A stretch of DNA of 64,000 bases, from NCBI RefSeq assembly GCF_049519115.1, contig NZ_JBEKRB010000007.1, positions 103,798 to 167,797 on the forward strand, read 5' to 3'. The DNA comes from Bradyrhizobium sp. Lineage in GTDB: Bacteria > Pseudomonadota > Alphaproteobacteria > Rhizobiales > Xanthobacteraceae. The translations under genes and the position numbers were made by a program. The notes below the pieces were generated by a model. That model did no database searches. It was not told the DNA's origin and was given only the letters and a program-made list of their open reading frames with translations. Of this stretch, positions 2,954-45,910 are shown piece after piece. The first letter of the stretch is position 1. Each line of letters begins with the position of its first letter.

Positions 2954-3118
2954 CTAGTGTGGCGGTTCAGAAGTCCGCATCATTTCTGCCGCGAGTTCGT
3001 CATGCGGACTTCTGAACCAAAGCCACACTAGATCAATGGGTTTGCTAGTGTCCTTTCGATTCCGAAGTTCGAAATGTAGCTCCGCAAAACGCGACGAACT
3101 TCGGAATCGGGACACCAG
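2954..3118. repeat. CTAG-capped twin-hairpin element, copy 1
   Basis: Hairpin A is CTAGTGTGGC + 17-bp stem, AAA bulge, GCCACACTAG. After a 13-nt spacer, hairpin B is CTAGTGTCC, TTT bulge, 15-bp stem, GGACACCAG. Confidence 0.9.
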
Positions 3119-3276
3119 CCCGGGGATGGGTTCCGGCCGGGAGGCCGGCGGGGAGGCCGCTGGCTGCCCAAAGACCGCCCCGGTCATTTCCTAAATTTTC
3201 GGTAAGACCTCTGCCAGTTAAGGATTTGGCAAGATATGAAAGTTACCAAATGGTCAATCTTTAATGGAGAATTGCC

Positions 3277-4347
3277 GTGAGCGACCAGCAACCCGAGCCA
3301 ATTGGCGGCGAATCCGGTTCCCTTGACGCAGGTGTTTCCCATCCGTCCAGCGAGGCGGTAACGGCTTCCGCGGCGGCGACCAGCGAAGCGGCGGTCGTGC
3401 CGGTGTCCGAGCCATCCATGCCGGAGCCGTCAATGTCCGAGCCTTCAATGGAGGCAGTGGCGTCGGAGACCCCGAAAGTCGAGGCCCCGAAAGTCGAGGC
3501 CGTGAAGGCCGAGGCGAGCCCTCAGGCAGCCCAGCCGGAAGCCGCGGGTGAGAAAATTTCACCCACCCCCGGCAAGGTCATCGTCATGTCACGGGGCGAT
3601 CGTGCCTGGTCCGATCATGGCGTCCATGCCGAGTCTGAGGCGGCCGGGCAGCAAAGCGTGTTCGGCATGCGCCGAATCGCGGCGATCGCCGCCGTGGTGG
3701 CGCTGGCGATTGCAGCCGGTGCGCTCGGCGGTGCGTTTGCGACCGCGACCCTCATGCATGGCGGCAGCGACACGGCAAGCAACGGCAGCCCGACTTCGCT
3801 CGAGGCTTCGCTGTCGCGGATCGACACCGATATCCAGGCGCTGAAGACCGGCCTCGATCACACCTCCAAACTCGGCTTGAGCCAGTTCAACAAGACCAGC
3901 GAGCGTCTCGACAAGCTCGAGCGTGCGCAGGCCGACCCGGCCGCCAAGATCGCCAAGCTCAGCGAAACCGTCGACAAGCTCCGCGCCGCACCCGCTGCGG
4001 CACCGGCGGCGGCTGCGGCGGCTCCTGCCGCATCTTCCGCCGCGAAGGAAACCACCGGTTCGATCGCACCCGCCCAGCAAGCTTCGGCAACGACGGCTGT
4101 GCCCAAAACCGAAGCCAAGACCGAAGCCAAGGTCGACACGAAGACCGAAGTCGGCCGCTTGCCGACGCTGGAAGATTGGGTGCTGCGCGATGTCGGCTAT
4201 GGCGGCGCCCTGATCGGCGGCCGTCGCGGCACTTACGAAGTCTATGCTGGCGACACGATTCCGGGTCTCGGCCGGGTCGATGCCATCCGCCGCCAGGACG
4301 GCCGCTGGGTGGTCGTGACCAGCCGCGGCCTGATTGTGGCGCGCTAA
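3277..4347 (+). CDS. Hypothetical membrane-anchored protein (low-complexity N-terminus, TM helix, coiled coil, small C-terminal beta domain)
   Basis: 356 aa ORF with GGAGA RBS and GTG start; TM segment IAAIAAVVALAIAAGALGG. Confidence 0.75.
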   Translation: MSDQQPEPIGGESGSLDAGVSHPSSEAVTASAAATSEAAVVPVSEPSMPEPSMSEPSMEAVASETPKVEAPKVEAVKAEASPQAAQPEAAGEKISPTPGKVIVMSRGDRAWSDHGVHAESEAAGQQSVFGMRRIAAIAAVVALAIAAGALGGAFATATLMHGGSDTASNGSPTSLEASLSRIDTDIQALKTGLDHTSKLGLSQFNKTSERLDKLERAQADPAAKIAKLSETVDKLRAAPAAAPAAAAAAPAASSAAKETTGSIAPAQQASATTAVPKTEAKTEAKVDTKTEVGRLPTLEDWVLRDVGYGGALIGGRRGTYEVYAGDTIPGLGRVDAIRRQDGRWVVVTSRGLIVAR

Positions 4348-4489
4348 AAATCCTTCGTCCGGTTCTCACCGTGACGTGAAAGTGCGGCGGTTGTCACAAG
4401 ACAGCCGCCGTCTTTTTGTCTATTTCCTGACCACAAAGCCTCACCCGAAACGTGTGGAATGCGGGCCTCCGCGCGGGGTTTGTCAGGAT

Positions 4490-6076
4490 ATGGGTCTTCC
4501 GTTGCGTTCACTTGTCATCGCCTTCGCGCTCGTCTTTAGTTCGTTGCCGCCAAGCGCTGCGCAAAGTGCGCCGGCGCTGGAGCGCGGCACGGCGGTCACC
4601 GATCCCCTCGCTTTACGTGAACTCGATCGAGGCCCATTCGGCCTTGCGCGGATGCTCTCCGCATCGTCATCGTCGAACAAACCGTTTACCGACGACGCAT
4701 TGTTTGCGTTGTCGGCCATCACGCCGATCCGAAAATCGCTCGACGAGGAGTTCGAACGATATGTGCAGCGGCACAAGGCCGAACTCCCGAACGAAACCAT
4801 CGGCGTCGGGCCGCAATTCGATTTCCAGCTATTCGACCGCGACCAGCTTTATTCGCAGGCCAGCCGCTTTGTGCTCGCCGGTATTGTCAGCCGGATGGAC
4901 CGCGCTTTTGTGGCGCCGGACAGTTGCGGTGAAATCCGGCTGATCTATCGCCTCAGCGAGATCGATGCGCCGCCGGTCGGCGATCACGGCGATCACGGCG
5001 CTTCGGCGCGGCTGCCGATGACGCTTAATCTGGTTTTGAAGGCGAAAGCCGACAAGGCCGACGCCAAGGGCGCGGCACTGACCTGCGCGGCCATTGCCCG
5101 CCGTTGGCTGGAATCAGGTGACTGGCCGCTCGCTGGCGCGGCGCTCGCGGAAAAACTGACGTCCGATGAGGGGCCGTTGGTTTCGATCGGGCCCGAAAAT
5201 ATCGAGCGCATCGAAACCAACCTGCAGATCGCGCATGTGTCGCAGTCGCCGGGCCATGAATTCCGCACCGACTATCTGCTGAAGGTCTTTGACTATAACC
5301 CGCAGGCAAAAGCTTTCGAGGAAGCAACGCTGGAAGACCAGATCGATCGCGAGCGTTTGCTGGCGGATGAAAAGCTCAGGCGGGATTTCAAGGCGTGGCT
5401 GCTCGATCCCACGCATCTGGCGGAATTCGATCGCGGCACGGTCCTGATCCCGAAGGAATTTCTCGCCAAAGCGGCGATCGCGCCGACCCCGATCGGCTTT
5501 GCGGCCTCGCCGGTACAACCAGCTTTCGGCCTTGTGCAGGGCGAGGGCGAAAATCCCCTGTTTTCGACGGATGACGTCGTGACGGCGCTGCAAAAAGCAG
5601 CGGCGCACGGAATCAATTTGCAAAACATCCGTTCGGTTGCAGGCTTCGAGCGCCGTCTCAACGACATCACCTGCGCCGGATGCCACCAGACCCGCGGCAT
5701 CGGCGGATTTCATTTTCCCGGCGTCGACTGGATGGCGGCCCATCCGTCCAACACATTGATCGTGCCGGCCTCGCCGCACTTCTTCGGCGATCAGGTTCGC
5801 CGCCGCGACATTCTGGCCGAAATCCGCGACGGCAAGCCGGTCGATTACAGCCGCGGCTTTTCCGAACGGCCGCAGTTGCGCGGCAGCGGGGAGCTGGTCG
5901 GAACCGAATATGACGACGGCTGGGGCGCGCATTGCTATGGCCTGCATGCCAAAGCCGGCGACAAGGCCGCCGATAACGACCGAAGTTTCGTGTCATGGAG
6001 CTGCGCCAAGGGGCTCGCCTGTCAGGTCATGAGCGAGGCCTCGCGCATGGGCATGTGTTTCGTCGCCAATCAGTAG
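4490..6076 (+). CDS. Secreted hypothetical protein with one CxxCH motif
   Basis: Signal-peptide-like MGLPLRSLVIAFALVFSS from ATG 4490; ITCAGCHQ motif; Cys-rich C-terminus. Confidence 0.7.
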   Translation: MGLPLRSLVIAFALVFSSLPPSAAQSAPALERGTAVTDPLALRELDRGPFGLARMLSASSSSNKPFTDDALFALSAITPIRKSLDEEFERYVQRHKAELPNETIGVGPQFDFQLFDRDQLYSQASRFVLAGIVSRMDRAFVAPDSCGEIRLIYRLSEIDAPPVGDHGDHGASARLPMTLNLVLKAKADKADAKGAALTCAAIARRWLESGDWPLAGAALAEKLTSDEGPLVSIGPENIERIETNLQIAHVSQSPGHEFRTDYLLKVFDYNPQAKAFEEATLEDQIDRERLLADEKLRRDFKAWLLDPTHLAEFDRGTVLIPKEFLAKAAIAPTPIGFAASPVQPAFGLVQGEGENPLFSTDDVVTALQKAAAHGINLQNIRSVAGFERRLNDITCAGCHQTRGIGGFHFPGVDWMAAHPSNTLIVPASPHFFGDQVRRRDILAEIRDGKPVDYSRGFSERPQLRGSGELVGTEYDDGWGAHCYGLHAKAGDKAADNDRSFVSWSCAKGLACQVMSEASRMGMCFVANQ

Positions 6077-6172
6077 AACGCGGGCGCTCTCGCACCGCGC
6101 GAGATTGACAGTAAGCTCACTAATCGTGTTTCATCGCGCCAACGCAACCACCAAGGGATGCGGGGAGGGAAC

Positions 6173-10900: not shown

Positions 10901-11027
10901 GATGAGGCCGTCCCGTGTGTTGATATTATTCCGCGCGATGGAAACGTCGTTCCACGCGGTTTGCCGATGGTTTTGATCGATAACGGCGGTCGATGCAACG
11001 GCGGTTTTTTGCCGTCGACGATGACGG

Positions 11028-14140: not shown

Positions 14141-14306
14141 CTAGTGGTCCAATTCTAACATTCGCACCCCTTCGCAGCCGCACTTTTGCGAATGTTAGAA
14201 TTGCAGAACCACTAGCAACAGTCGATTTTCGTGGAGTTTAGGATTTGACATTCGCTTCGGGAGTTTGCGGCTAGGCGGGTAGCGAATGTCAAATCCACTC
14301 CACGAA
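14141..14306. repeat. CTAG-capped twin-hairpin element, copy 2
   Basis: Hairpin A is CTAGTGGTCC + 16-bp stem, GCA bulge. Hairpin B is TTCGTGGAGT/ACTCCACGAA (compensated cap), TTA bulge, 16-bp stem. Confidence 0.9.
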
Positions 14307-14363
14307 GCATATATTATAAGGCGCCTTCAAAGGAATCGGCTTTGCGAAAGCGCCGGGGTCGGT

Positions 14364-29416: not shown

Positions 29417-29418
29417 GG

Positions 29419-29586
29419 CTAGTGTCCCGGTTCTGACATTCGTATCATATCACAGCGGGCACTTTACGAATGTCAGAACCAAAGGGACACTAGCAAATCT
29501 ATAAATTCTAGTGTGGCTTTTGACCCTGACGTTCCTTTTGCGAGGCCGCTGAGAAACTGAAAGGAACGTCAGCGTCGCCACACTAG
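29419..29586. repeat. CTAG-capped twin-hairpin element, copy 3
   Basis: Hairpin A is CTAGTGTCCC + perfect 16-bp stem, AAA bulge. After spacer CAAATCTATAAATT, hairpin B is CTAGTGTGGC, T-run bulge, GCCACACTAG. Confidence 0.9.
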
Positions 29587-29589
29587 ATC

Positions 29590-32461: not shown

Positions 32462-32478
32462 GGCGGCTCTTCCCTGGA

Positions 32479-32650
32479 CTAGTGGTCCAATTCCAACATT
32501 CGCATCCTTCTCAGCAGGCACTTTGGCGAATATTGGAGTTAGAAGGACCACCAGCAAATATAGGTTTCCAGTGGAGTTCTGGGTTTGACATTCGCGTTTT
32601 ACGAATTCGCGGCTAGTCGCGAGCAGCGAAAGTCAAATCCACTCCACTAG
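32479..32650. repeat. CTAG-capped twin-hairpin element, copy 4
   Basis: Hairpin A is CTAGTGGTCC...GGACCACCAG. After spacer CAAATATAGGTTT, hairpin B is CCAGTGGAGT, TCT bulge, ...ACTCCACTAG. Confidence 0.88.
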
Positions 32651-32864
32651 GCCCCCTCCGTTGAGTCGGAAGGTGGGTGTTAGGACCAAATTACATCCTC
32701 TTGCGCAGCTTTGGGCAAGAGACAGTTTTGACGGATTTGATGTCGCGGCTCCATGGCATGCCACACACAATGCCTTCCTCACCTCTGTCGCCCGTGACAA
32801 GGTGAGGTCTAGGGATTAAGGCATAGTTTGAAACAACGTTTGATTTCGCCGGAGGCCGCCCGCC

Positions 32865-34037: not shown

Positions 34038-34094
34038 AGGCGGATTAACCGGGACGGCGCGCGCGCGTTGACATCGGCTCAATCCAAGGTTTCA

Positions 34095-34254
34095 CTAATA
34101 CCACCGATCTGAAGTCCCTGCACTGCGGGCGGCGGGTTCTCCCCAGGGACTTCAGATCGAAAGCGGTACTAGAATCATATCTTTGCAAGTGCCCTTGCTT
34201 TCCGAAGTTCATGTAAGGTGCCGCTGCGATGTCTCACGATCTTGAGGGCACTAG
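34095..34254. repeat. CTAG-capped twin-hairpin element, copy 5 (second hairpin decayed)
   Basis: Hairpin A has a perfect 16-bp inner stem CGATCTGAAGTCCCTG and an AAA bulge. Hairpin B keeps the outer CAAGTGCCC/GGGCACTAG but has lost inner pairing. Confidence 0.8.
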
Positions 34255-34298
34255 CGAGGTGGGACCGCTAGCGCCCGCTTTTCCTTGAGGGCGCCTTC

Positions 34299-36660: not shown

Positions 36661-36690
36661 GGCCGCTGGCGGCCGGTCGTCATTGCTTAG

Positions 36691-36773
36691 TCGTCATGGG
36701 CCGAGACAAACGCGAGAGGCGTTTGCGCACGGGAGCGCAAGCAATGCTTGATCGTCATGCCCGGCCATGACGA
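36691..36773. repeat. Degenerate CGTC-tagged palindromic repeat
   Basis: TCGTCATGGG...CCATGACGA termini between convergent genes. Confidence 0.55.
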
Positions 36774-36811
36774 GAGAGTTATTGCTGTTCGTAGAGACCT
36801 TGAATGTAGAG

Positions 36812-37435: not shown

Positions 37436-37516
37436 CGGGTTCCTCGCAATTCAAGCTTGATGAGTAAGCAGGCCATATCGGGGCTATTTTCGCAAGCAAA
37501 CGTGACGGATTTCAAA

Positions 37517-37683
37517 CAAGTACCGCCGATCTGAAGTCCCTGCGGCACTTGTAGCGAATTATTTCAGGGACTTCAGATCGAAGGCGGTACTTGAATCCAC
37601 AAGTTTGCTGGTGCCCTTGGCTTCCCGAAGTTCGCAAAAGGTATTGTGGAGCCCGGGGGCGAACTTCGGAAAGCGGGCACCAG
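37517..37683. repeat. CTAG-capped twin-hairpin element, copy 6
   Basis: Hairpin A is CAAGTACCGC/GCGGTACTTG (compensated cap) with a perfect 16-bp stem and AAG bulge. Hairpin B is CTGGTGCCC/GGGCACCAG with a TTG bulge. Confidence 0.9.
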
Positions 37684-37833
37684 TGCGGTTAAAATTGCGC
37701 TTGGCGTGTACCGGCGATGGCAGCCATGCGCCCAAAACCTCCACGGCCCCTTCCGGACCCCTTTGACGAACGGCGTAAAACGAGTGATTGATCTGGCCAT
37801 AAGGTGCTTCGAACCCCGAACGGGAGCTAAAGA

Positions 37834-39381
37834 ATGAACGGTGCGGAAAGTCTGGTGCGGACCCTGGTCGCGGGCGGGGTCGACGTCTGTTTCACCAACC
37901 CCGGCACCTCGGAGATGCATTTCGTCGCGGCGCTGGATCGCGTGGAGGGCATGCGCTGCGTGCTCGGCCTGTTCGAGGGCGTGGTGACGGGTGCGGCCGA
38001 CGGCTATTTCCGCATGAAGGGCACGCCGGCCTCGACGCTGCTGCATCTCGGGCCTGGTCTCGCCAATGGGCTTGCCAACCTGCACAACGCCAAGAAGGCG
38101 CATTCCGGCATCGTCAATATCGTCGGCCAGCACGCGACCTATCACATCGGCTACAATGCGCCGCTCACCTCCGACATCGAGGGTCTGGCGCGACCGATGT
38201 CGGAATGGGTGCGGACCTCGCCGGATGCCAAGTCCGTCTCGGCAGACGGCGCCGCCGCCATTGCCGCCGCCAAGAGCGCCCCGCCGCAGATCGCCACGCT
38301 GATTTTGCCCGCAGACACCGCCTGGAACGAAGCCGACGGCATCGCGCAGGTCCCGCCGCCCAAACAGCAGCCGGGTTTTTCGGCTGGCGCGGTCGAAAAG
38401 GCCGCCGGGATACTGCATTCGGGCGGTACGCAGAATCTGCTGCTGATCACCGGCAGCGCGCTGACCGAGCGAGGTCTGGCGCTGGCGCAGCAGATCGCCG
38501 GCAAGTCCGGCTGCAAGGTGATGGGCCAGACCTATCACCCGCGCATGGCGCGCGGCCGCGGCCGGTTCTCGATCGACCGCATTCCCTATGTGATCGAGCA
38601 GGCGCTGCCGCTCTTGAAGGACTTCAAGAACATCATCCTGGTCGAGGCCAACGACCCGATCGCCTTCTTCGCCTATCCGAACAAGCCGAGCCATCTGAAA
38701 CCCGACGGCTGCGAGGTTCACCGCCTGACCGCCTGGGGCGAAAATTCGGTCGCAGCACTTGAAGCGCTCGCCGATGCGCTCGGTGCCAAGCCTTCCGATG
38801 TCAAGCCGCAGAAGCTCGTCGAACTCAACAAGCCGACCGGGCCGCTCAATCATGCTTCGATCGCGCAGGCGATCGCATGCGCGATCCCCGAGAACGCGAT
38901 CATCGTCGATGAATCCATCACCACCGGCCGTGGCTTTTTTCCGCCGACGGCGGCGGCAGCCCCGCATGACTGGCTGCAGAACATGGGCGGCTCGATCGGA
39001 TTTTCGACGCCGGTGGCAACTGGTGCCGCGGTGGCGTGTCCCGACCGCAAGGTGATCTGCATGGTCGGCGACGGCAGCGCGATGTACACACTCCAGTCCC
39101 TGTGGACGCAGGCGCGCGAAGGCCTCAACGTCGTCACGATCGTGTTCGCCAATCGCATCTATCAGATCCTGCGCGGCGAATTCGACGGGGTCGGCGCCGG
39201 CGCGCCCGGCCAACGCGCCATGGACATGCTGAAGATCGACAACCCGACGCTGGACTTCGTCGCGCTTGCCAAGGGCATGGGCGTTGCGGGGCGCGCGGTG
39301 ACCACGGCGGACGAATTCAACGTGGCGCTGGCGGAAGCGATCGCCGAGCCCGGGCCGCGGCTGATCGAAGTAAAGTTCTAA
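37834..39381 (+). CDS. Acetolactate synthase large subunit-like ThDP enzyme
   Basis: FTNPGTSEMH, LFEG, LHLGPGLANG and GDGSAMY motifs. Confidence 0.88.
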   Translation: MNGAESLVRTLVAGGVDVCFTNPGTSEMHFVAALDRVEGMRCVLGLFEGVVTGAADGYFRMKGTPASTLLHLGPGLANGLANLHNAKKAHSGIVNIVGQHATYHIGYNAPLTSDIEGLARPMSEWVRTSPDAKSVSADGAAAIAAAKSAPPQIATLILPADTAWNEADGIAQVPPPKQQPGFSAGAVEKAAGILHSGGTQNLLLITGSALTERGLALAQQIAGKSGCKVMGQTYHPRMARGRGRFSIDRIPYVIEQALPLLKDFKNIILVEANDPIAFFAYPNKPSHLKPDGCEVHRLTAWGENSVAALEALADALGAKPSDVKPQKLVELNKPTGPLNHASIAQAIACAIPENAIIVDESITTGRGFFPPTAAAAPHDWLQNMGGSIGFSTPVATGAAVACPDRKVICMVGDGSAMYTLQSLWTQAREGLNVVTIVFANRIYQILRGEFDGVGAGAPGQRAMDMLKIDNPTLDFVALAKGMGVAGRAVTTADEFNVALAEAIAEPGPRLIEVKF

Positions 39382-39402
39382 AGCGCATCAATTAATCCGC
39401 TC

Positions 39403-39495
39403 CTCGTCATGCCCGCGCTTGTCGCGGGCATCCACGTCTTAAGTAGCCATGGAAAGAAAGACGTAGATGGCCGGGACAAGCCCGGCCATGACGAG
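39403..39495. repeat. CGTC-tagged REP-like repeat (CGTCATGCCCG type)
   Basis: CTCGTCATGCCCGCGCTTGTCGCGGGCATCCACGTCTT...AAGACGTAGATGGCCGGGACAAGCCCGGCCATGACGAG. Confidence 0.88.
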
Positions 39496-39564
39496 ATAGC
39501 ATCAATCGGCCGAAATTATTGTTGAAGCTAAATCGCCGTGCTTCATGAGACTTGCGGGGGCCAG

Positions 39565-40080
39565 ATGCGTACCGAACTGGACAAGATCGTCGCCGCGCTG
39601 AAGGAATTTTATGCGCGCGAAGCATTCCTGTTTGAGCACGATCTCGGCGAGCGCGCCCTGGCGCATCGGCTGGCGCTGCATGTGGAGCGGCAGTTTCCGG
39701 ATTTCGAGGCCGATTGCGACTTCGACCGGCTCGGTCCGCGAACCCTGAACATGCCGCACGGTTCGATCGTGTCGACCGACGACCATCTCGGCAAATCGGT
39801 CTACCCCGACATCGTCGTGCATCAGCGCAGCGTTCCCAACAATCTGATCGCGATTGAGGTTCGCAAGGCCTCCAATCATCAGCCGCTGGAGCACGACCGG
39901 CAGAAGCTGCGCGCTTTGACCGATCCGCACATCTGGTTCGCCTACTGGATCGGTATTTTGCTGACGCTTGGAAAAAACAACGTCACGTCAACGGAAATCT
40001 ACGCGTCGGGCAAGCACGATCCCGAAATGTCCGGCGTTCTGGCCGAGCTATTGAAAGAGGCTGATATCGGCCTCGCTTGA
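39565..40080 (+). CDS. Hypothetical protein, possible PD-(D/E)xK nuclease fold
   Basis: YPDIVVHQR...NLIAIEVRK motif; start at MRTELDK. Confidence 0.6.
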   Translation: MRTELDKIVAALKEFYAREAFLFEHDLGERALAHRLALHVERQFPDFEADCDFDRLGPRTLNMPHGSIVSTDDHLGKSVYPDIVVHQRSVPNNLIAIEVRKASNHQPLEHDRQKLRALTDPHIWFAYWIGILLTLGKNNVTSTEIYASGKHDPEMSGVLAELLKEADIGLA

Positions 40081-40096
40081 GCCGCGCGCAAACGCG

Positions 40097-41212
40097 TCAC
40101 TGCGTCGGACGGACGGCCTTTTCCCGCATGCGGTAGAATTTGAGCGCGGTTCGCGCGGTCGCCGGCTGCAGCCGGTAGAAATTGGCGAAGGTCACGTCGA
40201 GCTGCTGGCGGGAAGAGCCGTTGACGCCGGCATGCATCAGCAACAGCTTCATCGTCGTCGCCCAGGAGATATCGAGCGCGCGGGCGAGAACGACGATCTG
40301 TTCGGTCTGGTTCTGCACCAGTGCGCGTTCCACGACGCCGACCGGCAGGTCGCACATCAAGGCGAGCGAGGCGACCACCAAATCGAAATTTCCTTCATCG
40401 GCGAAGGCCAGTAACTGCGGCTCGTTCAACTTGCCGGCGGCGTTCAGTTCACGCACCTCGTTGGAGGCTACCGAAAAGTCGTTGGAGCCGGCGCGCGCCT
40501 TGGTCTGGATGTCGTCGGTGGCTTGGGCAACCATCGACTTGATCAGTTCGGCGCGGCGAGGATCGGCTTCCACCAGCTGGTTCTTGACCGCCTCGGACGC
40601 ATCGACGAACAGCTTGACCAGGTTTTGCCGCGGGATATCCGGGCGGGACCAGACGCACAAAGCAAGGTCGCCGTCGTCGCACGCCTTGCGGACCAAAGTG
40701 GAGACCCCGAATTCGGAGAATTTCGCTCCGGCATTATGCGCGGTCGACGAGACCACGGCGTTGTTGCCGCGTTCCACCAGCACATCGGTCACGGCTTCGA
40801 CCAGGACCTTGCGGGTCGAGATCGCCAGCAGATGGTCCTGGCTCATCGTCTTCGCGGTGTCGACCAGCGTGTCGACGTCGAGGCGCTCGCTATGGGTGAG
40901 CAGGGGGCCGGCGACCTCGATCGCGTGATCGAATGCCAGCAGGCGGACCACCCCGCGCGGCGCATCGGGCAGTTTTGCGATGCGGCTGCCGAACTGCGCG
41001 CGGGCAGCACTTTCGATGTTGTCGACGAGCTTGCCCATCACGACATCGAACAGCGCGATCTGATCGTCGGAAAACGACCCGGATCGCAGCACGAAAAGGT
41101 CGGTGACCCGGCGCAGGACCTCGGCGCGCCGCGCCAGATCCTTGTTGCCAAGCGCGCTTTCGAGTTGATCGATCAAACCGCCCTGCGAATCTGCTTGCGC
41201 GCCCATGGTCAA
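40097..41212 (-). CDS. DUF2336 domain-containing protein
   Basis: LRRVTDLF, LAFDHAIEVAGPLL and HLLAISTR motifs. Confidence 0.85.
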   Translation of the reverse strand: MTMGAQADSQGGLIDQLESALGNKDLARRAEVLRRVTDLFVLRSGSFSDDQIALFDVVMGKLVDNIESAARAQFGSRIAKLPDAPRGVVRLLAFDHAIEVAGPLLTHSERLDVDTLVDTAKTMSQDHLLAISTRKVLVEAVTDVLVERGNNAVVSSTAHNAGAKFSEFGVSTLVRKACDDGDLALCVWSRPDIPRQNLVKLFVDASEAVKNQLVEADPRRAELIKSMVAQATDDIQTKARAGSNDFSVASNEVRELNAAGKLNEPQLLAFADEGNFDLVVASLALMCDLPVGVVERALVQNQTEQIVVLARALDISWATTMKLLLMHAGVNGSSRQQLDVTFANFYRLQPATARTALKFYRMREKAVRPTQ

Positions 41213-41233
41213 ATCCGGAAAAGAATTCTCCGC

Positions 41234-44200
41234 TTAGGCCACCATATTTTGCTTAACCGACGGATAACGGACGGTGAAATCGAGCTGGGAAGCGGGCACC
41301 GGCCGGCTGAAAAGATAGCCCTGGGCGAGGTTGACGCCTGCGGAGCGCATATATTCGAACTGCTCCTCGGTTTCGATGCCTTCCACGGTCGTGACCTTGT
41401 CGAGGCCTTTCGCGAGTGCGAGCACCGACGACACCACCGCGGCGTAGTCGCGGCGCTCCAGGACGCCGTGGGTGAAGGTCCGGTCGATCTTGATCTTGTC
41501 GAACGGAAAATTCGTCAGGTACGTCACCGACGAATAGCCGGTGCCGAAGTCGTCCAGCGCCAGGGATATGCCGAGGTTCTTGAGCTGGCGGATCGTCGCC
41601 AGATGGGCTTCCTGGTTTTCCAAGAGCGAGGTTTCGGTGATCTCCAGCTCCAGCCGCTCCGGATCGAGGCCGCTCTCGACCAGCGCGCACAGGATGACCT
41701 CAAACAGGTTGCCCCGTTTTAACTGAACGGCCGAAATGTTGATCGCGAGCTTGATATGCGCCGGCCACTGGGCTGCGTCGTTGCAGGCCCGTTGCAGGAT
41801 CCACTCGCCGATCGGCACGATCAGGCCGCTCGATTCGGCGAGCGGAATGAACTGATCGGGCCCAACCAGTCCCTTGACCGGATGCCGCCAGCGGACCAGC
41901 GCCTCGACGCCGCAGATTTGCCGGGTCGTGACGTCAACCACCGGCTGGTAATGCAGTTCGAATTGCTCGCGCGCGATGGCGTCGCGCAATTCGCTTTCCG
42001 CCGTTTGCTGCGAGGCTGCGTTTTCCAGCATGCCGGGCTGATAGATGCGGTAATCGCTCCGCCCATTTGCCTTTACGGCATAAAGTGCCAGATCGGCGCT
42101 CTTGAGCAGTCCTTCGGGGTCGGTGCCGTGTTCGGGCGCCAGCGCAATTCCGATGCTGGTGCCGACATTGACCTCAAACCCGCCGAGTTCGAACGGCTCG
42201 GCAATCGCGCTATTGATCCGCAGCGCCAGCGCGATCGCCCCCTCGTGCTGGCTGGGTCCGCCATCCTGAATGATGGCGAATTCGTCACCGCCGAGCCGTG
42301 CCAGCAGGTCGGTTTCCCGCAATGTGGATTTCAGCCGGCGGCCGACTTCGATTAGCAGTTCGTCACCGGCGGGATGGCCGAACATGTCGTTGACCGCCTT
42401 GAAGCGATCGAGATCGAGCATCATGACGGTGATGGCCTCGCCGCCGCGCTTCAGCCGCTTACAGGCCTCGTCGAGCTTCTCATTGAATTCGGCGCGGTTG
42501 GCGAGCCCCGTCAAAACGTCGTGGCGTGCCAGGTGGACGATTTCGGCTTCCGCGCGCTTTCGCTCGGTGATGTCTTCCACGATGGCGAGCCAGCCGCCGC
42601 CCGGCATCGGCTGACGCGACAGCAGCAGGAAGCGGCCGTCGGCGAGTTCATCGACCCGGTGCGAGTCTCTTGCCAGCGAAGACAGCTCGGTGACTTTCGC
42701 CTGGACGGCCTCGGGGCTCGTATCCGCCTTGGTGACGCCGCGGGTAAAGCGGTCGGCGATGATGTCCTCGTAGGGCGTTCCGACCTTCAGGAACTTTTCC
42801 GGCACGTCGTACAATTCGGCAAAGCGCTTGTTCCAGACCACGAGCCGCCTGCGTTCGTCGAACATCGACAGGCCCTGCGTCATGTGGCTCAGCGCCGCAT
42901 CGAACCGCAGGTTGATGCGCGCAAGCTCGGCAGCCTGATTGAAAAGGGCTTCCTCGTCGCTGACGCGTTCGGTGATGTCTTCGTGGATCGCGATCCATCC
43001 CCCGCCTGATATCGCTGTATTGGTGACCGACATCACGCGCCCGTCGTTCAAGCGCGAGATTTTTACGCTTCTGCCGTCCTTTAGCAGGTCGTTGCGGAAT
43101 TCGTCGACATAGGTTCTCGCGTCCATGTCGAGGCCGCTGATCAGCTTGCGATGCGCGACGATGTCGTAGATGTCCGCGCCGCGCGTGACGAGATCGGGCG
43201 ACATTCCGTACAGCTCGATGTAGCGCTCATTGCACACCATCAAGCGGCCGTCGGCATCGAACATGCTCAAGCCCGTCGGCATGTTGGCCAACGCGGCGTC
43301 GAAACGGGTATTGGTCTCGCGAAGTTCGATCGAATTTCTGGCAAGGTCTTTGGTGGCGCGCCAGACGAAAGCACCCATCACCAGGATGAAGCAGGTGATG
43401 GCCGCGGTCTCGATCAGCCGGCGAATCGCGTTGGCCTTCCACGGCGCCAGCAACTCATTCATGTTCTGCGCGACGGCGACGAAGATCGGATAGGTTTGTC
43501 CCTGCTCGTAGCTGTTGAAGCGCGTCACGCCGTCGATCGAAGCCTTGATTTCGAGGCTTCCAGAAGGCGCCTGTTTCAACTGCGCGAAGATCACGCTGTT
43601 GGTCATATCGCGGCCGACATTGGCCTCGACGAACGGCCGCCGTACCAGAAGCGTCCCATTTGTCGACACCAGGATGACGGCGCTGTTGTTGTCGAGTTCG
43701 AGGCGATCGTAGAAATCCTGGAAATATTGCGGATTGATCCCGGCCACCGCGACGCCGCCGAATGTCCCGTCGGGCTTGTTGTAGCGGCGCGTCACTGGAA
43801 TGAGCCAACCTTCGGCCTTGCGGCCCCGGATGGGAGCGCCGATGTGGAGCTCGTCGTGGGTGCGATGATAGGCAAGGTATTCTCGGTCGGAGAATTGTCC
43901 CGACGGCGCCTCGCCGAACGTGCTGACGATCATCGCGCCGTCGCTGTCGATCACGGCAAAGCTGACGAATTGAGACGAGTGGCGCACTTCGTCGGCGAAC
44001 CAGGCCCTGAGTCGCTCGTGCGTAACTGCATCGAGCGATTCGTGCTCCAGCCGTTCGACAACGCCGATCAGGATCGCGTCTGCCGTCCGGAAGGTCAGCT
44101 CGGCGTGCTGAAGCAGGGATTTCGTGAGATTGGCCGTCTGCAATCGCGCATTGGCGATGACTGTGGAACGCTGGGTGACGATGCGGGAGACTTCCAGGCC

Positions 44201-44329
44201 GATCAGCACGGTGCAGGCCAGCGCGACAAACCACGCGACCCGTGTCGCCAAACGTTGAGCGGTGCCGTTACCGGACCGCCTGGCCATCATCCATGCCTTG
44301 ACTCCGAACATGACGGCGCCGGTTCCCAA
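41234..44329 (-). CDS. Cache-PAS-PAS-GGDEF-EAL diguanylate cyclase/phosphodiesterase
   Basis: Periplasmic Cache region between TMs; two PAS-like repeats; RLGGDEF, VEALVRW and LDDFGTGYSS motifs. Confidence 0.93.
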   Translation of the reverse strand: MGTGAVMFGVKAWMMARRSGNGTAQRLATRVAWFVALACTVLIGLEVSRIVTQRSTVIANARLQTANLTKSLLQHAELTFRTADAILIGVVERLEHESLDAVTHERLRAWFADEVRHSSQFVSFAVIDSDGAMIVSTFGEAPSGQFSDREYLAYHRTHDELHIGAPIRGRKAEGWLIPVTRRYNKPDGTFGGVAVAGINPQYFQDFYDRLELDNNSAVILVSTNGTLLVRRPFVEANVGRDMTNSVIFAQLKQAPSGSLEIKASIDGVTRFNSYEQGQTYPIFVAVAQNMNELLAPWKANAIRRLIETAAITCFILVMGAFVWRATKDLARNSIELRETNTRFDAALANMPTGLSMFDADGRLMVCNERYIELYGMSPDLVTRGADIYDIVAHRKLISGLDMDARTYVDEFRNDLLKDGRSVKISRLNDGRVMSVTNTAISGGGWIAIHEDITERVSDEEALFNQAAELARINLRFDAALSHMTQGLSMFDERRRLVVWNKRFAELYDVPEKFLKVGTPYEDIIADRFTRGVTKADTSPEAVQAKVTELSSLARDSHRVDELADGRFLLLSRQPMPGGGWLAIVEDITERKRAEAEIVHLARHDVLTGLANRAEFNEKLDEACKRLKRGGEAITVMMLDLDRFKAVNDMFGHPAGDELLIEVGRRLKSTLRETDLLARLGGDEFAIIQDGGPSQHEGAIALALRINSAIAEPFELGGFEVNVGTSIGIALAPEHGTDPEGLLKSADLALYAVKANGRSDYRIYQPGMLENAASQQTAESELRDAIAREQFELHYQPVVDVTTRQICGVEALVRWRHPVKGLVGPDQFIPLAESSGLIVPIGEWILQRACNDAAQWPAHIKLAINISAVQLKRGNLFEVILCALVESGLDPERLELEITETSLLENQEAHLATIRQLKNLGISLALDDFGTGYSSVTYLTNFPFDKIKIDRTFTHGVLERRDYAAVVSSVLALAKGLDKVTTVEGIETEEQFEYMRSAGVNLAQGYLFSRPVPASQLDFTVRYPSVKQNMVA

Positions 44330-44686
44330 TGCTTTTGCGGGAAATGAAAGGAAATTCAGCCGCCAAGCGTAGGTTTAAGGGGTTAAAAAAGTGACGCGGC
44401 GATTCTGCAAAACCCCTTTGCAAGATCGAGTCGGATGGCTGCACGCGATGTGAAAATTCTCTCTGCTGTTGTCTGATTTTTTGTCTACCCGTTTTGCGTG
44501 CAGATCGGTTCCGTAGAACTACGGAACTGCGAACAGAGAACGCGCGGATCTTTGAATCCGCCGCTTCGCGGGGATTCACGCTGCGTTAAGTCTGCGAGTA
44601 AATGGATCGTAGCCTGCTTCCGGCGCAGGGGGTACGAAGAAGCTCATGAATCCGTCGCAAGGATCGGTCGCAGGTCGCCTTCGAAC

Positions 44687-45040
44687 TCAGCGGGATTCGT
44701 GAAGTGCGCGCACTTCCGCGTCGCGATGTTTTGCGATCAACTCCGGTTCTTTCTCGTCCAGCCTCGTCAGTTCCGAGCGCGCGTTTTCATCGGCGCGGAT
44801 CAGCTCATCCAGCTTGGCGTGAATCGCGAGCGTATCGCGGTGGCTTGAGCGTTGAATGAACAGCGTCATGATCCACACGATCAAGGTCGCAACGGCGCTG
44901 AAGTCGAAGGTTTGCCGGTCGAAGGCTAGCCAGGCGAGCGCATAAAGCAGAACGACGGCGAAAGCCGCCGGATGGGCGGCGGCCTGGCCGAGCGTGGTCG
45001 TCCAGTGTCGCCTTTCGTGCGATGTGATCTCCGAGGGCAT
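44687..45040 (-). CDS. Low-affinity iron permease (Fet4-like) family small membrane protein
   Basis: FIQRSSHRDTLAIHAKLDELI motif. Confidence 0.75.
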   Translation of the reverse strand: MPSEITSHERRHWTTTLGQAAAHPAAFAVVLLYALAWLAFDRQTFDFSAVATLIVWIMTLFIQRSSHRDTLAIHAKLDELIRADENARSELTRLDEKEPELIAKHRDAEVRALHESR

Positions 45041-45087
45041 TCGAAGCTAATTCCTTCGTGAGATAACGGCTGCGAACAAGCTTTGCG

Positions 45088-45257
45088 CCAGTGGATTGGA
45101 TTTGACATTCGCGACCCACTCAGCCGCAAACTCGCGAAACGCGAATGTCAAATCCTAAACTCCACTGGAAACCTATATTTTCCGGTGCTCCTTTGATTCG
45201 AACATTCGCAAAAGTGCCGGCTGAAAAGGGATGCGAATGTTAGAATCGGACCACTAG
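45088..45257. repeat. CTAG-capped twin-hairpin element, copy 7
   Basis: Hairpin A is CCAGTGGATT/ACTCCACTGG with a 16-bp stem and TAA bulge. Hairpin B has a TTT bulge and ends GGACCACTAG. It is an inverted relative of copy 4. Confidence 0.88.
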
Positions 45258-45664
45258 CCGGCCTCTTCTCTGGCGCGCTCCTGAATTTCTTCCTGCGCGG
45301 CATCCAGTTCTTCCGGACTGGCGTTTTCGATCGCCGCGATCTTGTTGTTGGCGGTCTCAAGCGCCAGGATCAATTCGGAGAGCTTGACCTGCAGCGCCTT
45401 GGTGTCGCGGTTTTGCGTATTTTGAATCAGAAACACCATCAGGAACGTGACGATCGTGGTGCCGGTATTGATCACTAGTTGCCATGTATCGCTGTAGTGA
45501 AAGACCGGGCCGAGAACGGCCCACACCAGCACGACCAGCACGGCGATCACGAACGCCGGCGAGGTGCCGGCCCAGGTCGCGGTCGACGCGGCAAAGCGCA
45601 CAAACCAGTGGGTTGAGCTGGTCGCGGAACCTGTCAGCGATGACACCGGGAGGCTGCCGCGCAT
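45254..45664 (-). CDS. Low-affinity iron permease (Fet4-like) family small membrane protein
   Basis: YSDTWQLVINTGTTIVTFLMVFLIQNTQNRDTKALQVKLSELI motif. Confidence 0.85.
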   Translation of the reverse strand: MRGSLPVSSLTGSATSSTHWFVRFAASTATWAGTSPAFVIAVLVVLVWAVLGPVFHYSDTWQLVINTGTTIVTFLMVFLIQNTQNRDTKALQVKLSELILALETANNKIAAIENASPEELDAAQEEIQERAREEAG

Positions 45665-45745
45665 GCATCCGTTCTCGAGAGGGCGATCCCGTTATAATTC
45701 CGTGGGTTCCCTATGGTTCCATCGGGGAAGGCTGGCTTCCGCTGG

Positions 45746-45910
45746 CTGGTGGAGTGGATTTGACTTTGTTCCCCTGTGGCCGCGCGCTCGTGGCGCGAAT
45801 GTCAAATCCAAAAACTCCACCAGGAACCTATTTGCTAGTGGTCCTTTGATTCTAGCATTTGCAAAAGTGCCTCCGACACCGAGATGCAAATGTTAGAATC
45901 GGACCACTGG
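45746..45910. repeat. CTAG-capped twin-hairpin element, copy 8
   Basis: Hairpin A is CTGGTGGAGT/ACTCCACCAG with an A-run bulge. Hairpin B is CTAGTGGTCC, TTT bulge, GGACCACTGG. Confidence 0.88.

What the first reader, a model, noticed from the sequence alone, without database searches (positions are those of the whole stretch)
2954..45910. Eight-copy CTAG-capped twin-hairpin element with fixed geometry but divergent sequence
Seen: copies at 2954, 14141, 29419, 32479, 34095, 37517, 45088 and 45746, each 160-172 bp. Each has two hairpins separated by an 11-14 nt spacer. Each hairpin has a 9-10 bp outer stem capped by CTAG or a variant, a 3(-4) nt bulge always on the arm facing the spacer, a ~15-17 bp inner stem and a ~20-30 nt variable loop (hairpin B of copy 5 has decayed). 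The architecture is therefore dyad-symmetric. At least three sequence subfamilies share it (GTGTGGC/GTGTCC, GTGGTCC/GTGGAGT, GTACCGC/GTGCCC). Caps change on both arms together (CAAG/CTTG, CTGG/CCAG, TTCG/CGAA). Established: REP/REPIN sites of RAYT HUH nucleases, IS200/IS605 ends and integron attC sites are recognised as folded ssDNA with extrahelical bases. Inference: this is a structure-specific ssDNA/RNA substrate family, not ordinary terminators. I do not recognise it as the GTAG or CGTC REP families, and no cognate enzyme is evident in the window. Whether it has been described elsewhere is unknown to me.
Basis: partly seen in the sequence, partly recalled or inferred. Interest (0 to 1): 0.85.

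Follow-up and report, generated by a model that had tools for sequence, protein, structure and literature searches.

The report
Twin-hairpin mobile repeat targeting CTAG
The eight copies are real members of a large family of about 165-base non-coding mobile DNA elements, each made of two mirrored, bulged hairpins, that insert at the rare sequence CTAG in soil alphaproteobacteria; it resembles known bacterial REP/BIME and MITE repeats, but I found no earlier description and no enzyme that moves it.

Summary
The window has exactly 16 homologous hairpin units in 8 pairs at the stated coordinates, and no others. Fifteen units fold far better than shuffles; copy 5's second hairpin has decayed. The "divergent" hairpins are one family. 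Each element joins two distinct unit types in mirror orientation across a 12-14 nt AT-rich spacer.

In 119 related genome stretches the geometry recurs: 130 of 146 neighbouring unit pairs have it. Base pairing is kept through two-sided changes: 98.5% paired, slid controls 27-38%. G-U pairs are almost absent, which points to DNA rather than RNA.

The elements are insertions. Relatives have empty sites. Adjacent and nested copies share exactly one CTAG. Copies 99.4% identical sit at different loci in one genome. No Rfam family, no paper found, and no RAYT or recurrent neighbouring enzyme matches.

Verdict: a non-autonomous, CTAG-targeting, BIME/REPIN-like element family of Hyphomicrobiales and some Sphingomonadales. 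That it is recognised as folded single-stranded DNA is plausible but unproven; a DDE-transposase MITE is the main rival. Interest is moderate.

The parts
2954..3118 (+). Copy 1. Unit A is 2954-3031 (R-type, TGTGGC). The spacer is 3032-3044 (ATCAATGGGTTTG). Unit B is 3045-3118 (L-type, TGTCC, on the - strand). It lies between divergent genes: a cNMP-binding protein at 2520-2945(-) and an ORF at 3277-4347(+).
14141..14307 (-). Copy 2. Unit A is 14141-14215 (L-type, GGTCC). The spacer is 14216-14227. Unit B is 14228-14306 (R-type, GGAGT, with caps TTCG/CGAA). It lies between the opgC stop codon (14364) and the putA start.
29419..29586 (-). Copy 3. Unit A is 29419-29493 (L-type, TGTCC). The spacer is 29494-29507. 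Unit B is 29508-29586 (R-type, TGTGGC). It fills the whole 173-nt gap between the acyl-CoA dehydrogenase stop codon (29590) and the CoA-transferase start codon (29416). In relatives this gap is 8-14 nt.
32479..32650 (-). Copy 4. Unit A is 32479-32554 (L-type, GGTCC). The spacer is 32555-32567. Unit B is 32568-32650 (R-type, GGAGT). It lies between divergent genes: P450 (start near 32461, - strand) and an acyl-CoA dehydrogenase at 32865(+).
34095..34254 (+). Copy 5. Unit A is 34095-34172 (R-type, TACCAC/ACCGC, with cap CTAA). The spacer is 34173-34185. Unit B is 34186-34254 (L-type, GCCC) and has decayed (fold z = -0.4; CM score 23.7 bits).
37517..37684 (+). Copy 6. Unit A is 37517-37593 (R-type, TACCGC, caps CAAG/CTTG). 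The spacer is 37594-37607. Unit B is 37608-37683 (L-type, GCCC, caps CTGG/CCAG). It lies between a YkuD gene (- strand) and a TPP-enzyme gene (+ strand).
45088..45257 (+). Copy 7. Unit A is 45088-45168 (R-type, GGATT/GGAGT). The spacer is 45169-45181. Unit B is 45182-45257 (L-type, GGTCC). It lies between two iron-permease paralogues. Its right CTAG cap supplies the TAG stop codon of the gene at 45254-45664(-).
45746..45910 (+). Copy 8. Unit A is 45746-45823 (R-type, GGAGT, caps CTGG/CCAG). The spacer is 45824-45834. Unit B is 45835-45910 (L-type, GGTCC, caps CTAG/CTGG). It lies upstream of, and overlaps the longest ORF call of, a GreA-like gene at 45884-46480(+).

Best explanation
The eight copies belong to a large family of non-autonomous mobile DNA elements of about 165 bp.

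Anatomy. Each element is a fixed cassette: R-type hairpin unit, then a 13-nt AT-rich spacer (consensus AAWCNTATATTTG, similar to the IHF core site), then an L-type hairpin unit in mirror orientation. Each unit has a CTAG foot, a 10-bp outer stem, a 3-nt A-rich bulge on the spacer-facing arm, a 16-bp inner stem and a loop of about 22 nt.

Insertion (shown). The cassette inserts at the tetranucleotide CTAG. This target is often the C+TAG of a gene's stop codon or a cap of an older copy. After insertion a CTAG lies on both sides, so the net gain is the element body plus one CTAG.

What copies spread (shown). Copies with intact Watson-Crick hairpins are the ones that propagate. Subfamilies have therefore diverged through two-sided compensating changes while keeping the geometry. 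Individual copies then decay.

Mechanism (inferred). I think it most likely that a trans-acting enzyme, encoded elsewhere and not identified here, recognises the two bulged hairpins as folded single-stranded (or extruded) DNA and cuts and joins at the CTAG foot. This would be like RAYT on REP/BIME, or IS200/IS605 TnpA on its end hairpins. A nucleoid protein such as IHF may bend the spacer.

Confidence by step: about 0.9 that this is a non-autonomous CTAG-targeting mobile element family, and about 0.5 that recognition is of folded single-stranded DNA.
For: Homology and copy number:
- 16 units in 8 pairs in the window.
- 326 units in the 125 loci then held (119 genome-scan stretches plus six metagenome contigs identical to the window).
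Matches were in Afipia, Bradyrhizobium-labelled and Xanthobacteraceae MAGs, Pseudolabrys, Rhodoplanes, Mesorhizobium, Phyllobacterium and Sphingomonadales.
- Plasmid copies occur in Aminobacter, Rhizobium and Bradyrhizobium.

Fixed architecture:
- 130 of 146 adjacent unit pairs are (+,-), and 109 of those have a 12-14 nt spacer.
- Unit partners are type-specific: GGAGT with GGTCC 54 times, TGTGG with TGTCC 16 times.

Structure maintained:
- Window units: 93.6% paired, 21 of 26 pairs with two-sided changes, 0 of 500 shuffles as high.
- 145 distinct units elsewhere: 98.5% paired, 636 two-sided-change cells, slid controls 27-38%.
- Same-type window units: stems differ at 17% of sites and loops at 36%, with 33 compensated, 4 uncompensated and 61 one-sided differences.
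- G-U pairs are roughly 0.7% of cells.

Mobility:
- 80 related loci (73-91% protein identity) carry no unit. Their ACAD-to-CoA-transferase gap, read in the nearest relatives, is 8-14 nt, against 173 nt in the window.
- Clean empty site: L016 reads ..CAT CTAA CGGAC.. where L036 reads ..TAT CTAG[element]CTAG CGGAG...
- Window 10942-10963 is empty where L099 is occupied.
- Related strains in peat and soil runs lack copies 3 and 4.
- 99.4% identical copies lie at different loci in one MAG.

CTAG target:
- All 7 (-,+) junctions overlap by exactly 4 nt.
- Nested copies in L084, L044 and L014 are inserted at inner caps.
- 28 of 172 outer caps are the TAG stop codon of a neighbouring ORF.
- L107 sits between two convergent stop codons.
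- CTAG is about 5-fold under-represented in the window (41 against 225 expected), about 10-fold once the elements' own copies are excluded, and 18 of the 41 lie in the elements.

Non-autonomous: no coding capacity, and no recurrent enzyme family among 150 neighbouring ORFs.

IHF-like spacer: at least 7 of 9 matches to WATCAANNNNTTR in 56 of 101 spacers, against 21% of shuffled spacers.
Against: - No enzyme was identified. There is no RayT homologue in about 1.6 Mb of element-bearing loci or on any Hyphomicrobiales plasmid in PLSDB. No autonomous copy with the same ends was found.
- The ends also fit a classical double-stranded DDE mechanism: CTAG flanking repeats, 5'-TG...CA-3' termini and terminal inverted repeats sharing CTAGTGN. 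From my own knowledge, IS481, IS630 and IS5 relatives prefer CTAG or YTAR targets.
- The data cannot tell a 4-bp (or TA) target duplication from insertion 3' of CTAG by an element that carries its own 3' CTAG.
- In one orthologous pair (L008/L051) the element is about as diverged as its flanks (91% against about 92%), and the stem changes there are disruptive. In-place selection on individual copies is therefore weak at best.
- Compensation could partly come from repair within the palindrome rather than from selection.
- Sequences are related by descent, so the covariation counts overstate the number of independent events.
- The literature search was limited to open-access full text.
Confidence: 0.6

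Rival explanations
1. This is an ordinary MITE moved in trans by a DDE transposase acting on double-stranded DNA. The candidate would be an IS481-, IS630- or IS5/IS701-like IS living elsewhere in these genomes. The outer arms are the terminal inverted repeats, the flanking CTAG (or its central TA) is a target-site duplication, and the spacer is an IHF site that helps assemble the transposition complex. On this view the hairpin character of each half is a by-product of the element's origin, or serves something other than transposition.
For: - Termini are 5'-TG...CA-3' directly inside CTAG flanks, and both ends share CTAGTGN, with position 7 co-varying between the two ends (G/G 66, T/T 19, C/C 6 of 101).
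- The empty site holds a single CTAG-like tetranucleotide.
- Neighbouring copies share exactly one CTAG.
- The spacer is IHF-like.
- The 5' end resembles the Correia repeat TATAGTGGATTA... (PMC5039591): the window has CCAGTGGATTGG at 45088 and the common form is CTAGTGGAGTGG.
- CTAG or YTAR target preference of IS481, IS630 and IS5 is from my own knowledge and was not tested here.
Against: - A transposase that reads only the terminal repeats leaves the inner arms free to drift. Yet they stay 98.5% Watson-Crick complementary across subfamilies.
- The 3-nt bulge makes the two arms of a unit non-equivalent as duplex binding sites, and its position and length are conserved.
- Loop and spacer lengths are constrained.
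- No parent IS with these ends was seen in about 1.6 Mb of element-bearing loci or among 150 neighbouring ORFs.
Confidence: 0.33
2. The hairpins are kept because they work in RNA. When co-transcribed inside operons and untranslated regions, they would act as mRNA stabilisers, processing sites (RNase III or RNase E) or translation-coupling modulators, as proposed for REP, ERIC and Correia elements. Host selection on RNA structure would then explain the covariation.
For: - Copies lie inside operons and next to start and stop codons. Copy 3 lies between the ACAD and CoA-transferase genes. Plasmid copies lie within or beside ABC-transporter gene clusters, for example between the sugar-binding-protein and ATPase genes in Bradyrhizobium sp. 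CB82.
- Predicted RNA folds are very stable, -70 to -94 kcal/mol per element.
Against: - G-U pairs are almost absent, roughly 0.7% of cells, although RNA tolerates them.
- Both orientations occur relative to the neighbouring genes.
- Copies also sit between divergent and between convergent genes.
- This cannot explain insertion polymorphism, the CTAG target or nested copies.
- At most it is a secondary effect of a mobile element.
Confidence: 0.05
3. The elements are domesticated chromosomal sites for host DNA-binding proteins (IHF, gyrase or DNA polymerase I, as reported for enterobacterial BIMEs), spread long ago and now immobile.
For: - The architecture is BIME-1-like, with an IHF-like spacer.
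- Copies in the window genome are old: at most 83% identical to one another, with degenerate caps.
Against: - Near-identical copies at different loci in MAG CAWHSM (99.4%) and frequent nested or tandem insertions show recent movement in some genomes.
- Orthologous copies decay.
Confidence: 0.05

Closest known systems
BIME-1 / RIB-RIP elements and REPINs of enterobacteria and pseudomonads (REP pairs associated with RAYT, a Y1 HUH transposase)
   Same: - Intergenic, high-copy and non-coding.
- Two palindromic units in inverted orientation across a short fixed linker.
- The two units are of different types, as with Y and Z REPs.
- The linker resembles an IHF site.
- Subfamilies behave as evolving populations.
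- Recognition as folded DNA is the accepted model for REP/RAYT.
   Different: - Units here are about 75 nt with 26 paired positions, a fixed 3-nt bulge and a 22-nt loop, against 20-40 nt for REPs.
- The tag is a palindromic CTAG at both feet, not GTAG or CGTC at one end (PMC3733652).
- The insertion target is clearly CTAG.
- No RAYT was found.
- The host range is Hyphomicrobiales and Sphingomonadales.
Correia repeat-enclosed elements (CREE/NEMIS) of Neisseria
   Same: - Non-autonomous repeats of about 100-160 bp with terminal inverted repeats.
- The short flanking repeat contains TA.
- A central IHF site (from my own knowledge).
- No known transposase.
- Often co-transcribed with neighbouring genes.
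- The terminal bases are similar: TATAGTGGATTA... (PMC5039591) against CTAGTGGAGTGG or CCAGTGGATTGG here.
   Different: - A Correia element is one long palindrome (left end pairs with right end). Here each half is its own hairpin and the halves cannot pair beyond 7 nt.
- Correia duplicates TA; here the flanks are CTAG.
- There is no sequence similarity beyond about 9 nt.
- The phylum-level host differs.
IS200/IS605-family ends and their non-autonomous derivatives (PATEs)
   Same: - Two subterminal hairpins with unpaired bases.
- Insertion next to a specific tetranucleotide that is also the cleavage site.
- Seamless single-stranded 'peel and paste' would give exactly the observed CTAG-body-CTAG product.
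   Different: - In IS608-type elements both hairpins are read on one strand and are not mirror images.
- Their cleavage sites lie at a distance from the hairpin foot.
- Their left and right cleavage sites differ.
- No TnpA (Y1) was found here.
RIME1 (Rhizobium-specific intergenic mosaic element; Osteras et al. 1995), recalled from memory as holding two large palindromes
   Same: An intergenic mosaic repeat of rhizobia, reported to contain two large palindromes, with tens of copies per genome.
   Different: - blastn of a window copy and of a 32-nt consensus unit end against all PLSDB plasmids returned no Sinorhizobium record. Whether pSymA/pSymB are among the records searched, or carry RIMEs, was not checked.
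- The original paper could not be read, so the comparison of architecture is unverified.
Br-REP1 / Br-REP2 of Bradyrhizobium (Hahn et al. 2016, PMC5082802)
   Same: Same lineage of hosts, intergenic, palindromic. Both are present in this window (20157-20198 and 843-948).
   Different: They are different sequences (CCGGAATCTCGAGATTCCGG; CGAGATTCCGGGTTCGG...CCCCGGAATGA). They are short palindromes without CTAG caps and without the twin bulged-hairpin cassette.

Membership tests
REP / REPIN-RAYT system | A short (20-40 nt) imperfect palindrome carrying a conserved GTAG (or CGTC) tag at one end | tested here: not met
   Units are 74-83 nt with CTAG at both feet, and no GTAG or CGTC tag is conserved. 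The definition is taken from PMC3733652.
REP / REPIN-RAYT system | Two units in inverted orientation separated by a short spacer (a doublet) | tested here: met
   130 of 146 adjacent unit pairs are (+,-), and the spacer is 12-14 nt in 109 of them.
REP / REPIN-RAYT system | A single-copy RAYT (Y1 HUH) gene flanked by the repeats in the same genome | tested here: inconclusive
   No RayT homologue was found in the window plus about 1.6 Mb of loci (tblastn). None was found on Hyphomicrobiales plasmids. None of the families shared by two or more of the 150 neighbouring ORFs is a transposase or nuclease. Whole genomes could not be scanned.
MITE (non-autonomous DDE-type transposon) | Small (<300 bp), non-coding, many copies, with terminal inverted repeats | tested here: met
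   Elements are 160-172 bp. Their ends are CTAGTGN... and ...N'CACTAG. The estimate is tens to hundreds of copies per genome by extrapolation: 4.5-12.5 per 100 kb.
MITE (non-autonomous DDE-type transposon) | A target-site duplication flanking each copy | tested here: inconclusive
   CTAG lies on both sides and one CTAG-like tetranucleotide lies in the empty site. Because CTAG is palindromic and invariant, a duplication cannot be told apart from an element-borne CTAG.
MITE (non-autonomous DDE-type transposon) | A parent IS with the same terminal repeats and a transposase gene | tested here: not met
   None was found in the held loci or next to the plasmid copies. Whole genomes were not available.
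IS200/IS605-derived element | Subterminal hairpins and insertion 3' of a specific tetranucleotide, without duplication and with strand bias | tested here: inconclusive
   The hairpins and the tetranucleotide specificity are present. The mirror symmetry of the element and the palindromic target make strand bias and duplication undecidable. Both orientations occur in one replication arm of the window.
Intrinsic (Rho-independent) terminator | A short GC-rich stem-loop followed by a T-run | tested here: not met
   None of the 23 terminator-like sites in 28000-47000 lies in an element, and the units have no T-run.
Any Rfam 15 RNA family | A score at or above the family's gathering threshold | tested here: not met
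   There are no hits at gathering threshold in the window. In 45050-45950 there are only chance microRNA-model hits far below threshold.
Integron attC site | R/L boxes (GTTRRRY), extrahelical bases on the bottom strand, and a location in cassette arrays next to intI | tested here: not met
   Inspection of the aligned units shows no GTTRRRY core. The copies are scattered among housekeeping genes, with no integrase among the ORFs scanned.
Br-REP1 / Br-REP2 | The consensus sequences given in PMC5082802 | tested here: not met
   Those consensus sequences match other palindromes in the window (20157-20198 and 843-948), not the twin hairpins.

The most novel reading that the evidence does not exclude
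The twin hairpins may be the substrate of a still unidentified transposition system that reads DNA structure. In this reading a trans-acting enzyme, not a canonical RAYT, recognises a 26-bp bulged DNA hairpin and cuts and joins exactly at its palindromic CTAG foot. The variable four bases of the outer stem, together with position 7 (which co-varies between the two ends), would act as a subfamily 'address'. The system would have persisted and diversified across Hyphomicrobiales and Sphingomonadales as a REPIN-like population of intragenomic replicators.
Probability: 0.3. Interest if true: 0.8.

Novelty: new variant of a known kind. Interest (0 to 1): 0.55.

Why it matters
If the family is indeed undescribed, it adds a well-defined and widespread class of structured mobile repeats to the Alphaproteobacteria. 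The abundant CGTC REPs of this group have no associated transposase gene (PMC3733652).

Several features make it a tractable system for finding the enzyme and for asking how hairpin-shaped DNA is recognised:
- strict geometry;
- co-diverging subfamilies;
- a clean CTAG target;
- recently active copies in some genomes.

It also has practical consequences:
- The elements hold close to half of all CTAG sites in this window.
- They sit exactly on stop codons and inside operons.
- They break metagenome assemblies: contig joins between copies appear.
- Gene callers can extend ORFs into them, as with the longest ORF calls for putA, P450 and the GreA-like gene here.

Tried and rejected
- Rfam at gathering threshold and at permissive E-value found nothing.
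- Candidate 'gene flanked by units' gaps in L116, L047 and L057 hold ordinary genes: an agmatinase-like gene, a response-regulator histidine kinase and an acetyltransferase-like gene, judged from their translations.
- The search for an interrupted or autonomous unit, with the 5' arm and its complement kilobases apart, found only separate copies.
- 'Solo' units turned out to be deletion chimeras between the directly repeated inner arms of A and B, truncated remnants, or pairs whose partner belongs to a further subfamily.
- E. coli RayT searched by tblastn against all held loci and against PLSDB plasmids gave no relevant hit.
- A Pfam scan of 150 ORFs next to elements showed no recurrent transposase or nuclease. 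The most frequent families are TctC, SDR, SBP and Crp, with 3 members each.
- The plasmid copies have no transposase nearby.
- The viral contig scan gave 98 pattern hits, of which only 3 are real units. It was uninformative.
- The IS110-family transposase in the window has no twin hairpin at its borders.
- The original RIME paper could not be read.
- The polarity test, asking whether the cap that doubles as a stop codon always adjoins one unit type, gave 13 against 15 after I reassigned two TGGTTC units that the script had counted as R-type. It cannot separate the mechanisms in any case.
- Positions 8-9 differ between the two units of an element in a complementary way. This turned out to be a fixed R-type versus L-type difference, not covariation.

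Full report

Yes. At each of the eight coordinates there are two strong hairpins separated by 11-14 nt.

A profile built from the 16 hairpins, each read in its own orientation, finds exactly these 16 in the window. They fall in eight (+,-) pairs with no solo unit. A covariance model run with all filters off gives the same answer.

Folded as single-stranded DNA, 15 units have z-scores of -3.7 to -10.3 against dinucleotide shuffles. The second hairpin of copy 5 has decayed, with z = -0.4. No Rfam family matches. No terminator-like or promoter-like consensus site falls inside copies 3-8, the six copies in the scanned stretch.

**2.

The hairpins are not unrelated sequences that happen to share a shape. 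All 16 align to one consensus: CTAGTG-N4-GATTCTGACATTCGC-loop-GCGAATGTCAGAATC-AAA-N4-CACTAG.

The bulge is always on the 3' arm of a unit read in its own orientation, and the two units of an element face each other. That is why the bulges face the spacer.

Each element joins two different unit types. I call them R (GGAGT, TGTGGC, TGCGGC, TACCGC) and L (GGTCC, TGTCC, TGCTCC, TGCCC). The partners are specific: GGAGT with GGTCC in 54 elements and TGTGG with TGTCC in 16. Elements therefore have polarity. In the window, copies 1, 5, 6, 7 and 8 lie one way, and copies 2, 3 and 4 the other.

The first seven bases (CTAGTGN) are the same at both ends of an element. Base 7 co-varies between the ends: G/G 66, T/T 19, C/C 6 of 101.

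The spacer is 13 nt in 67 of 101 elements, with consensus AAWCNTATATTTG. It matches the 13-nt IHF core WATCAANNNNTTR in at least 7 of 9 specified positions in 56 of 101 elements, against 21% of shuffled spacers. This is a resemblance, not a binding test.

**3. The family outside the window.**

The window's own proteins occur only on metagenome contigs. The DNA is found in peat, bog and soil runs.

The taxa were:
- Afipia, including A. massiliensis DSM 17498;
- Bradyrhizobium-labelled and Xanthobacteraceae MAGs;
- Pseudolabrys and Rhodoplanes;
- Mesorhizobium sp. B2-4-15 and Phyllobacterium;
- Sphingomonadales MAGs and the isolate Sphingobium sp. OAS761.

Plasmids of Aminobacter, Rhizobium sp. 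SSA_523 and Bradyrhizobium sp. CB82 carry copies.

The 125 loci then held contain 326 units. Of 146 adjacent unit pairs, 130 are (+,-), and 109 of those have a 12-14 nt spacer. The geometry is narrow: outer stem 10 bp, a 3-nt bulge that is mostly AAA, an inner stem of 16 bp in most units, and a loop of 21-24 nt.

The density of further elements around the sampled ones is 4.5 per 100 kb. In the window it is 12.5 per 100 kb. By extrapolation this suggests hundreds of copies per genome.

**4. The structure is maintained, and at the DNA level.**

On the window units, 93.6% of cells are paired. Twenty-one of 26 pairs show changes on both sides, and none of 500 shuffles reaches these values.

On 145 distinct units from other genomes, 98.5% of cells are paired and 636 cells have changes on both sides. 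Structures slid by 1-3 columns give 27-38%. That alignment was fitted to the model and the sequences are related by descent. The numbers therefore overstate independent events, although the effect is very large.

Within single unit types in the window, stems differ at 17% of sites and loops at 36%. There are 33 compensated double differences, 4 uncompensated and 61 one-sided.

G-U pairs are roughly 0.7% of cells. An RNA-selected helix would tolerate them. A helix that must form on either DNA strand would not.

Caps are CTAG in at least 90% of units. The variants are nearly all CTGG or CCAG and are more often uncompensated, 13 against 4.

**5. The elements are insertions.**

Eighty metagenome loci encode relatives (73-91% identity) of the acyl-CoA dehydrogenase next to copy 3. 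None contains a single unit. In the nearest of them the dehydrogenase and CoA-transferase genes are 8-14 nt apart. In the window the 173-nt gap is filled by copy 3.

A clean pair of sites is L016 and L036. L016 reads ..GCAT CTAA CGGACCATAAAGCC. L036 reads ..GTAT CTAG[TG...CA CTAG]CGGAGCATAAGCC. The window is empty at 10942-10963 where L099 carries a copy.

Contigs from related strains in the same environments skip copy 3 (29416 to 29588, with 6-7 other letters between) and copy 4.

In one MAG (CAWHSM01), copies at different loci are 99.4% and 96.4% identical. The best pair in the window is 83% identical. The family is recently active in some genomes and old in this one.

An orthologous copy shared by two Afipia genomes is 91% identical, about the same as its flanks, and the stem changes there are disruptive. 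Individual copies therefore decay. The perfect hairpins seem to be a property of the lineages that keep copying.

**6. The target is CTAG.**

- Every (-,+) junction between neighbouring elements overlaps by exactly four bases, the shared CTAG.
- In L084, L044 and L014 one element sits inside another, inserted exactly at an inner CTAG cap, again with one CTAG at each junction. The net gain per insertion is therefore the body plus one CTAG.
- Twenty-eight of 172 outer caps supply the TAG stop codon of a neighbouring long ORF. This includes window copy 7, which provides the stop codon of the gene at 45254-45664.
- In L107 the element lies exactly between the stop codons of two convergent genes, one in each cap. 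This fits a single pre-existing CTAG.
- CTAG is rare in the window: 41 observed against 225 expected from composition. Eighteen of the 41 lie inside the eight elements.

**7. Which enzyme?**

None was found.
- The window's only transposase is an IS110-family RNA-guided transposase at 57198-58247, with no unit at its borders.
- Gaps that looked like 'unit-gene-unit' hold ordinary genes.
- Truncated units are deletion chimeras or remnants.
- E. coli RayT finds nothing in about 1.6 Mb of element-bearing DNA, nor on any Hyphomicrobiales plasmid.
- Among 150 ORFs next to elements, no family recurs more than three times and none of the recurring families is a transposase or nuclease.
- The two plasmid copies with gene annotation lie within or beside ABC-transporter gene clusters; the Rhizobium record is almost unannotated.

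The elements are therefore non-autonomous, and their mobilising gene is probably single-copy or rare.

**8. Mechanism.**

Shown: a fixed cassette inserts at CTAG, leaves CTAG on both sides, and only hairpin-intact lineages multiply.

Inferred: I favour recognition of the two bulged hairpins as folded single-stranded (or extruded) DNA by a trans-acting enzyme that cuts at the CTAG foot, at about 0.5. My reasons are:
- a transposase that reads only duplex terminal repeats would leave the inner arms free to drift;
- the bulge makes the two arms unequal as duplex sites, yet it is conserved;
- stem, loop and spacer lengths are constrained;
- pairing is strictly Watson-Crick.

The main rival, at about 0.33, is a DDE-type MITE. 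TG...CA termini inside a CTAG repeat, shared terminal heptamers and an IHF-like centre are what such an element would show. From my own knowledge, several IS families prefer CTAG or YTAR. The sequence data cannot separate a 4-bp or TA duplication from insertion 3' of CTAG, because the target is palindromic and invariant.

RNA-level roles are possible side effects, given the operon locations and folds of -70 to -94 kcal/mol. They do not explain the mobility.

**9. Comparison with what is known.**

The architecture is closest to enterobacterial BIME-1/RIB elements and REPINs: two different palindromic units in mirror orientation around a short, IHF-like linker. It fails the defining REP feature, a 20-40 nt unit with a GTAG or CGTC tag (PMC3733652), and no RAYT was found.

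It shares size, terminal repeats, the lack of a known transposase and a nine-base terminal resemblance with Correia elements (PMC5039591). Those elements, however, are single palindromes.

It is not Br-REP1 or Br-REP2 (PMC5082802), both of which occur elsewhere in this window. It gives no BLAST hit in any Sinorhizobium replicon, so it is not detectably related to RIMEs. I could not read the RIME paper itself.

Element-specific 15-mers occur in no paper of the searchable library.

**10. Verdict.**

This is a real, abundant, structured and mobile repeat family. It is best filed as a new variant of the REP/BIME-MITE kind. Novelty is limited by an incomplete literature search and by the missing enzyme. 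Interest is moderate. It would be high if the enzyme proves to be a new hairpin-specific system.

Noticed in passing
window 20157-20198: A perfect-core palindrome, GAAGCGCGAACCCGGAATCTC/GAGATTCCGGGCTCATGCTTC. Its centre, CCGGAATCTCGAGATTCCGG, is the Br-REP1 consensus described for Bradyrhizobium japonicum (PMC5082802).
   Followed up: partly
window 843-948: Nested palindromes: TGTCATTCCGGGGCG...CGCCCCGGAATGACA enclosing CGAACCCGGAATCCAT...ATGGATTCCGGGCTCG. They carry motifs of the Br-REP2-containing larger repeat of Bradyrhizobiaceae (PMC5082802).
   Followed up: partly
window 39403-39495: An inverted pair of 38-nt arms. Each arm is itself a small stem-loop preceded by CGTC (CGTC ATGCCCGCG CTTGT CGCGGGCAT). 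It looks like a head-to-head dimer of the CGTC-tagged REPs described for Alphaproteobacteria (PMC3733652).
   Followed up: no
window 57198-58247 (- strand), within 52000-60000: An IS110-family RNA-guided transposase gene (NCBIfam NF033542, E = 7.8e-102). It lies in a stretch of lower G+C (0.565-0.573, against about 0.62 elsewhere). No twin-hairpin element occurs anywhere in 46-64 kb, so this segment may be a more recent acquisition. The IS ends and its target were not determined.
   Followed up: partly
whole window: CTAG occurs 41 times against 225 expected from base composition, and 18 of the 41 lie in the eight elements. Degenerate caps are almost always CTGG or CCAG. From my own knowledge, these are the products expected from a very-short-patch-type T:G repair bias. 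This was not tested.
   Followed up: partly
window 44687-45040 and 45254-45664 (both - strand): Two tandem paralogues of a low-affinity iron permease (PF04120) are separated by copy 7. The TAG stop codon of the 45254-45664 gene lies inside the element's right CTAG cap. The first paralogue matches the Pfam model much more weakly (43.6 against 163.4 bits).
   Followed up: partly
L107 2225-2392: An element sits exactly between two convergent genes. Each gene's TAG stop codon is provided by one CTAG cap. This is consistent with an original single CTAG in which the two stop codons overlapped.
   Followed up: yes
L116 1362-1560: A unit whose loop carries an extra palindromic insert of about 34 nt (ACATAAGCGCGTTCACGCGCGTCTTCGACGCGCT). 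A different small repeat has inserted into the hairpin loop.
   Followed up: no
window 34142-34196 and 37543-37660; window 29442 and 32544: Logan contigs from peat and soil runs join copy 5 to copy 6 (skipping about 3.4 kb) and copy 3 to copy 4. These are either assembler joins across the repeat or real recombinant or deleted variants.
   Followed up: no
window 3119-3170: Directly after copy 1 lies a G+C-rich run of short inverted repeats, CCCGGGGATGGGTTCCGGCCGGGAGGCCGGCGGGGAGGCCGCTGGC. It is of unknown nature.
   Followed up: no
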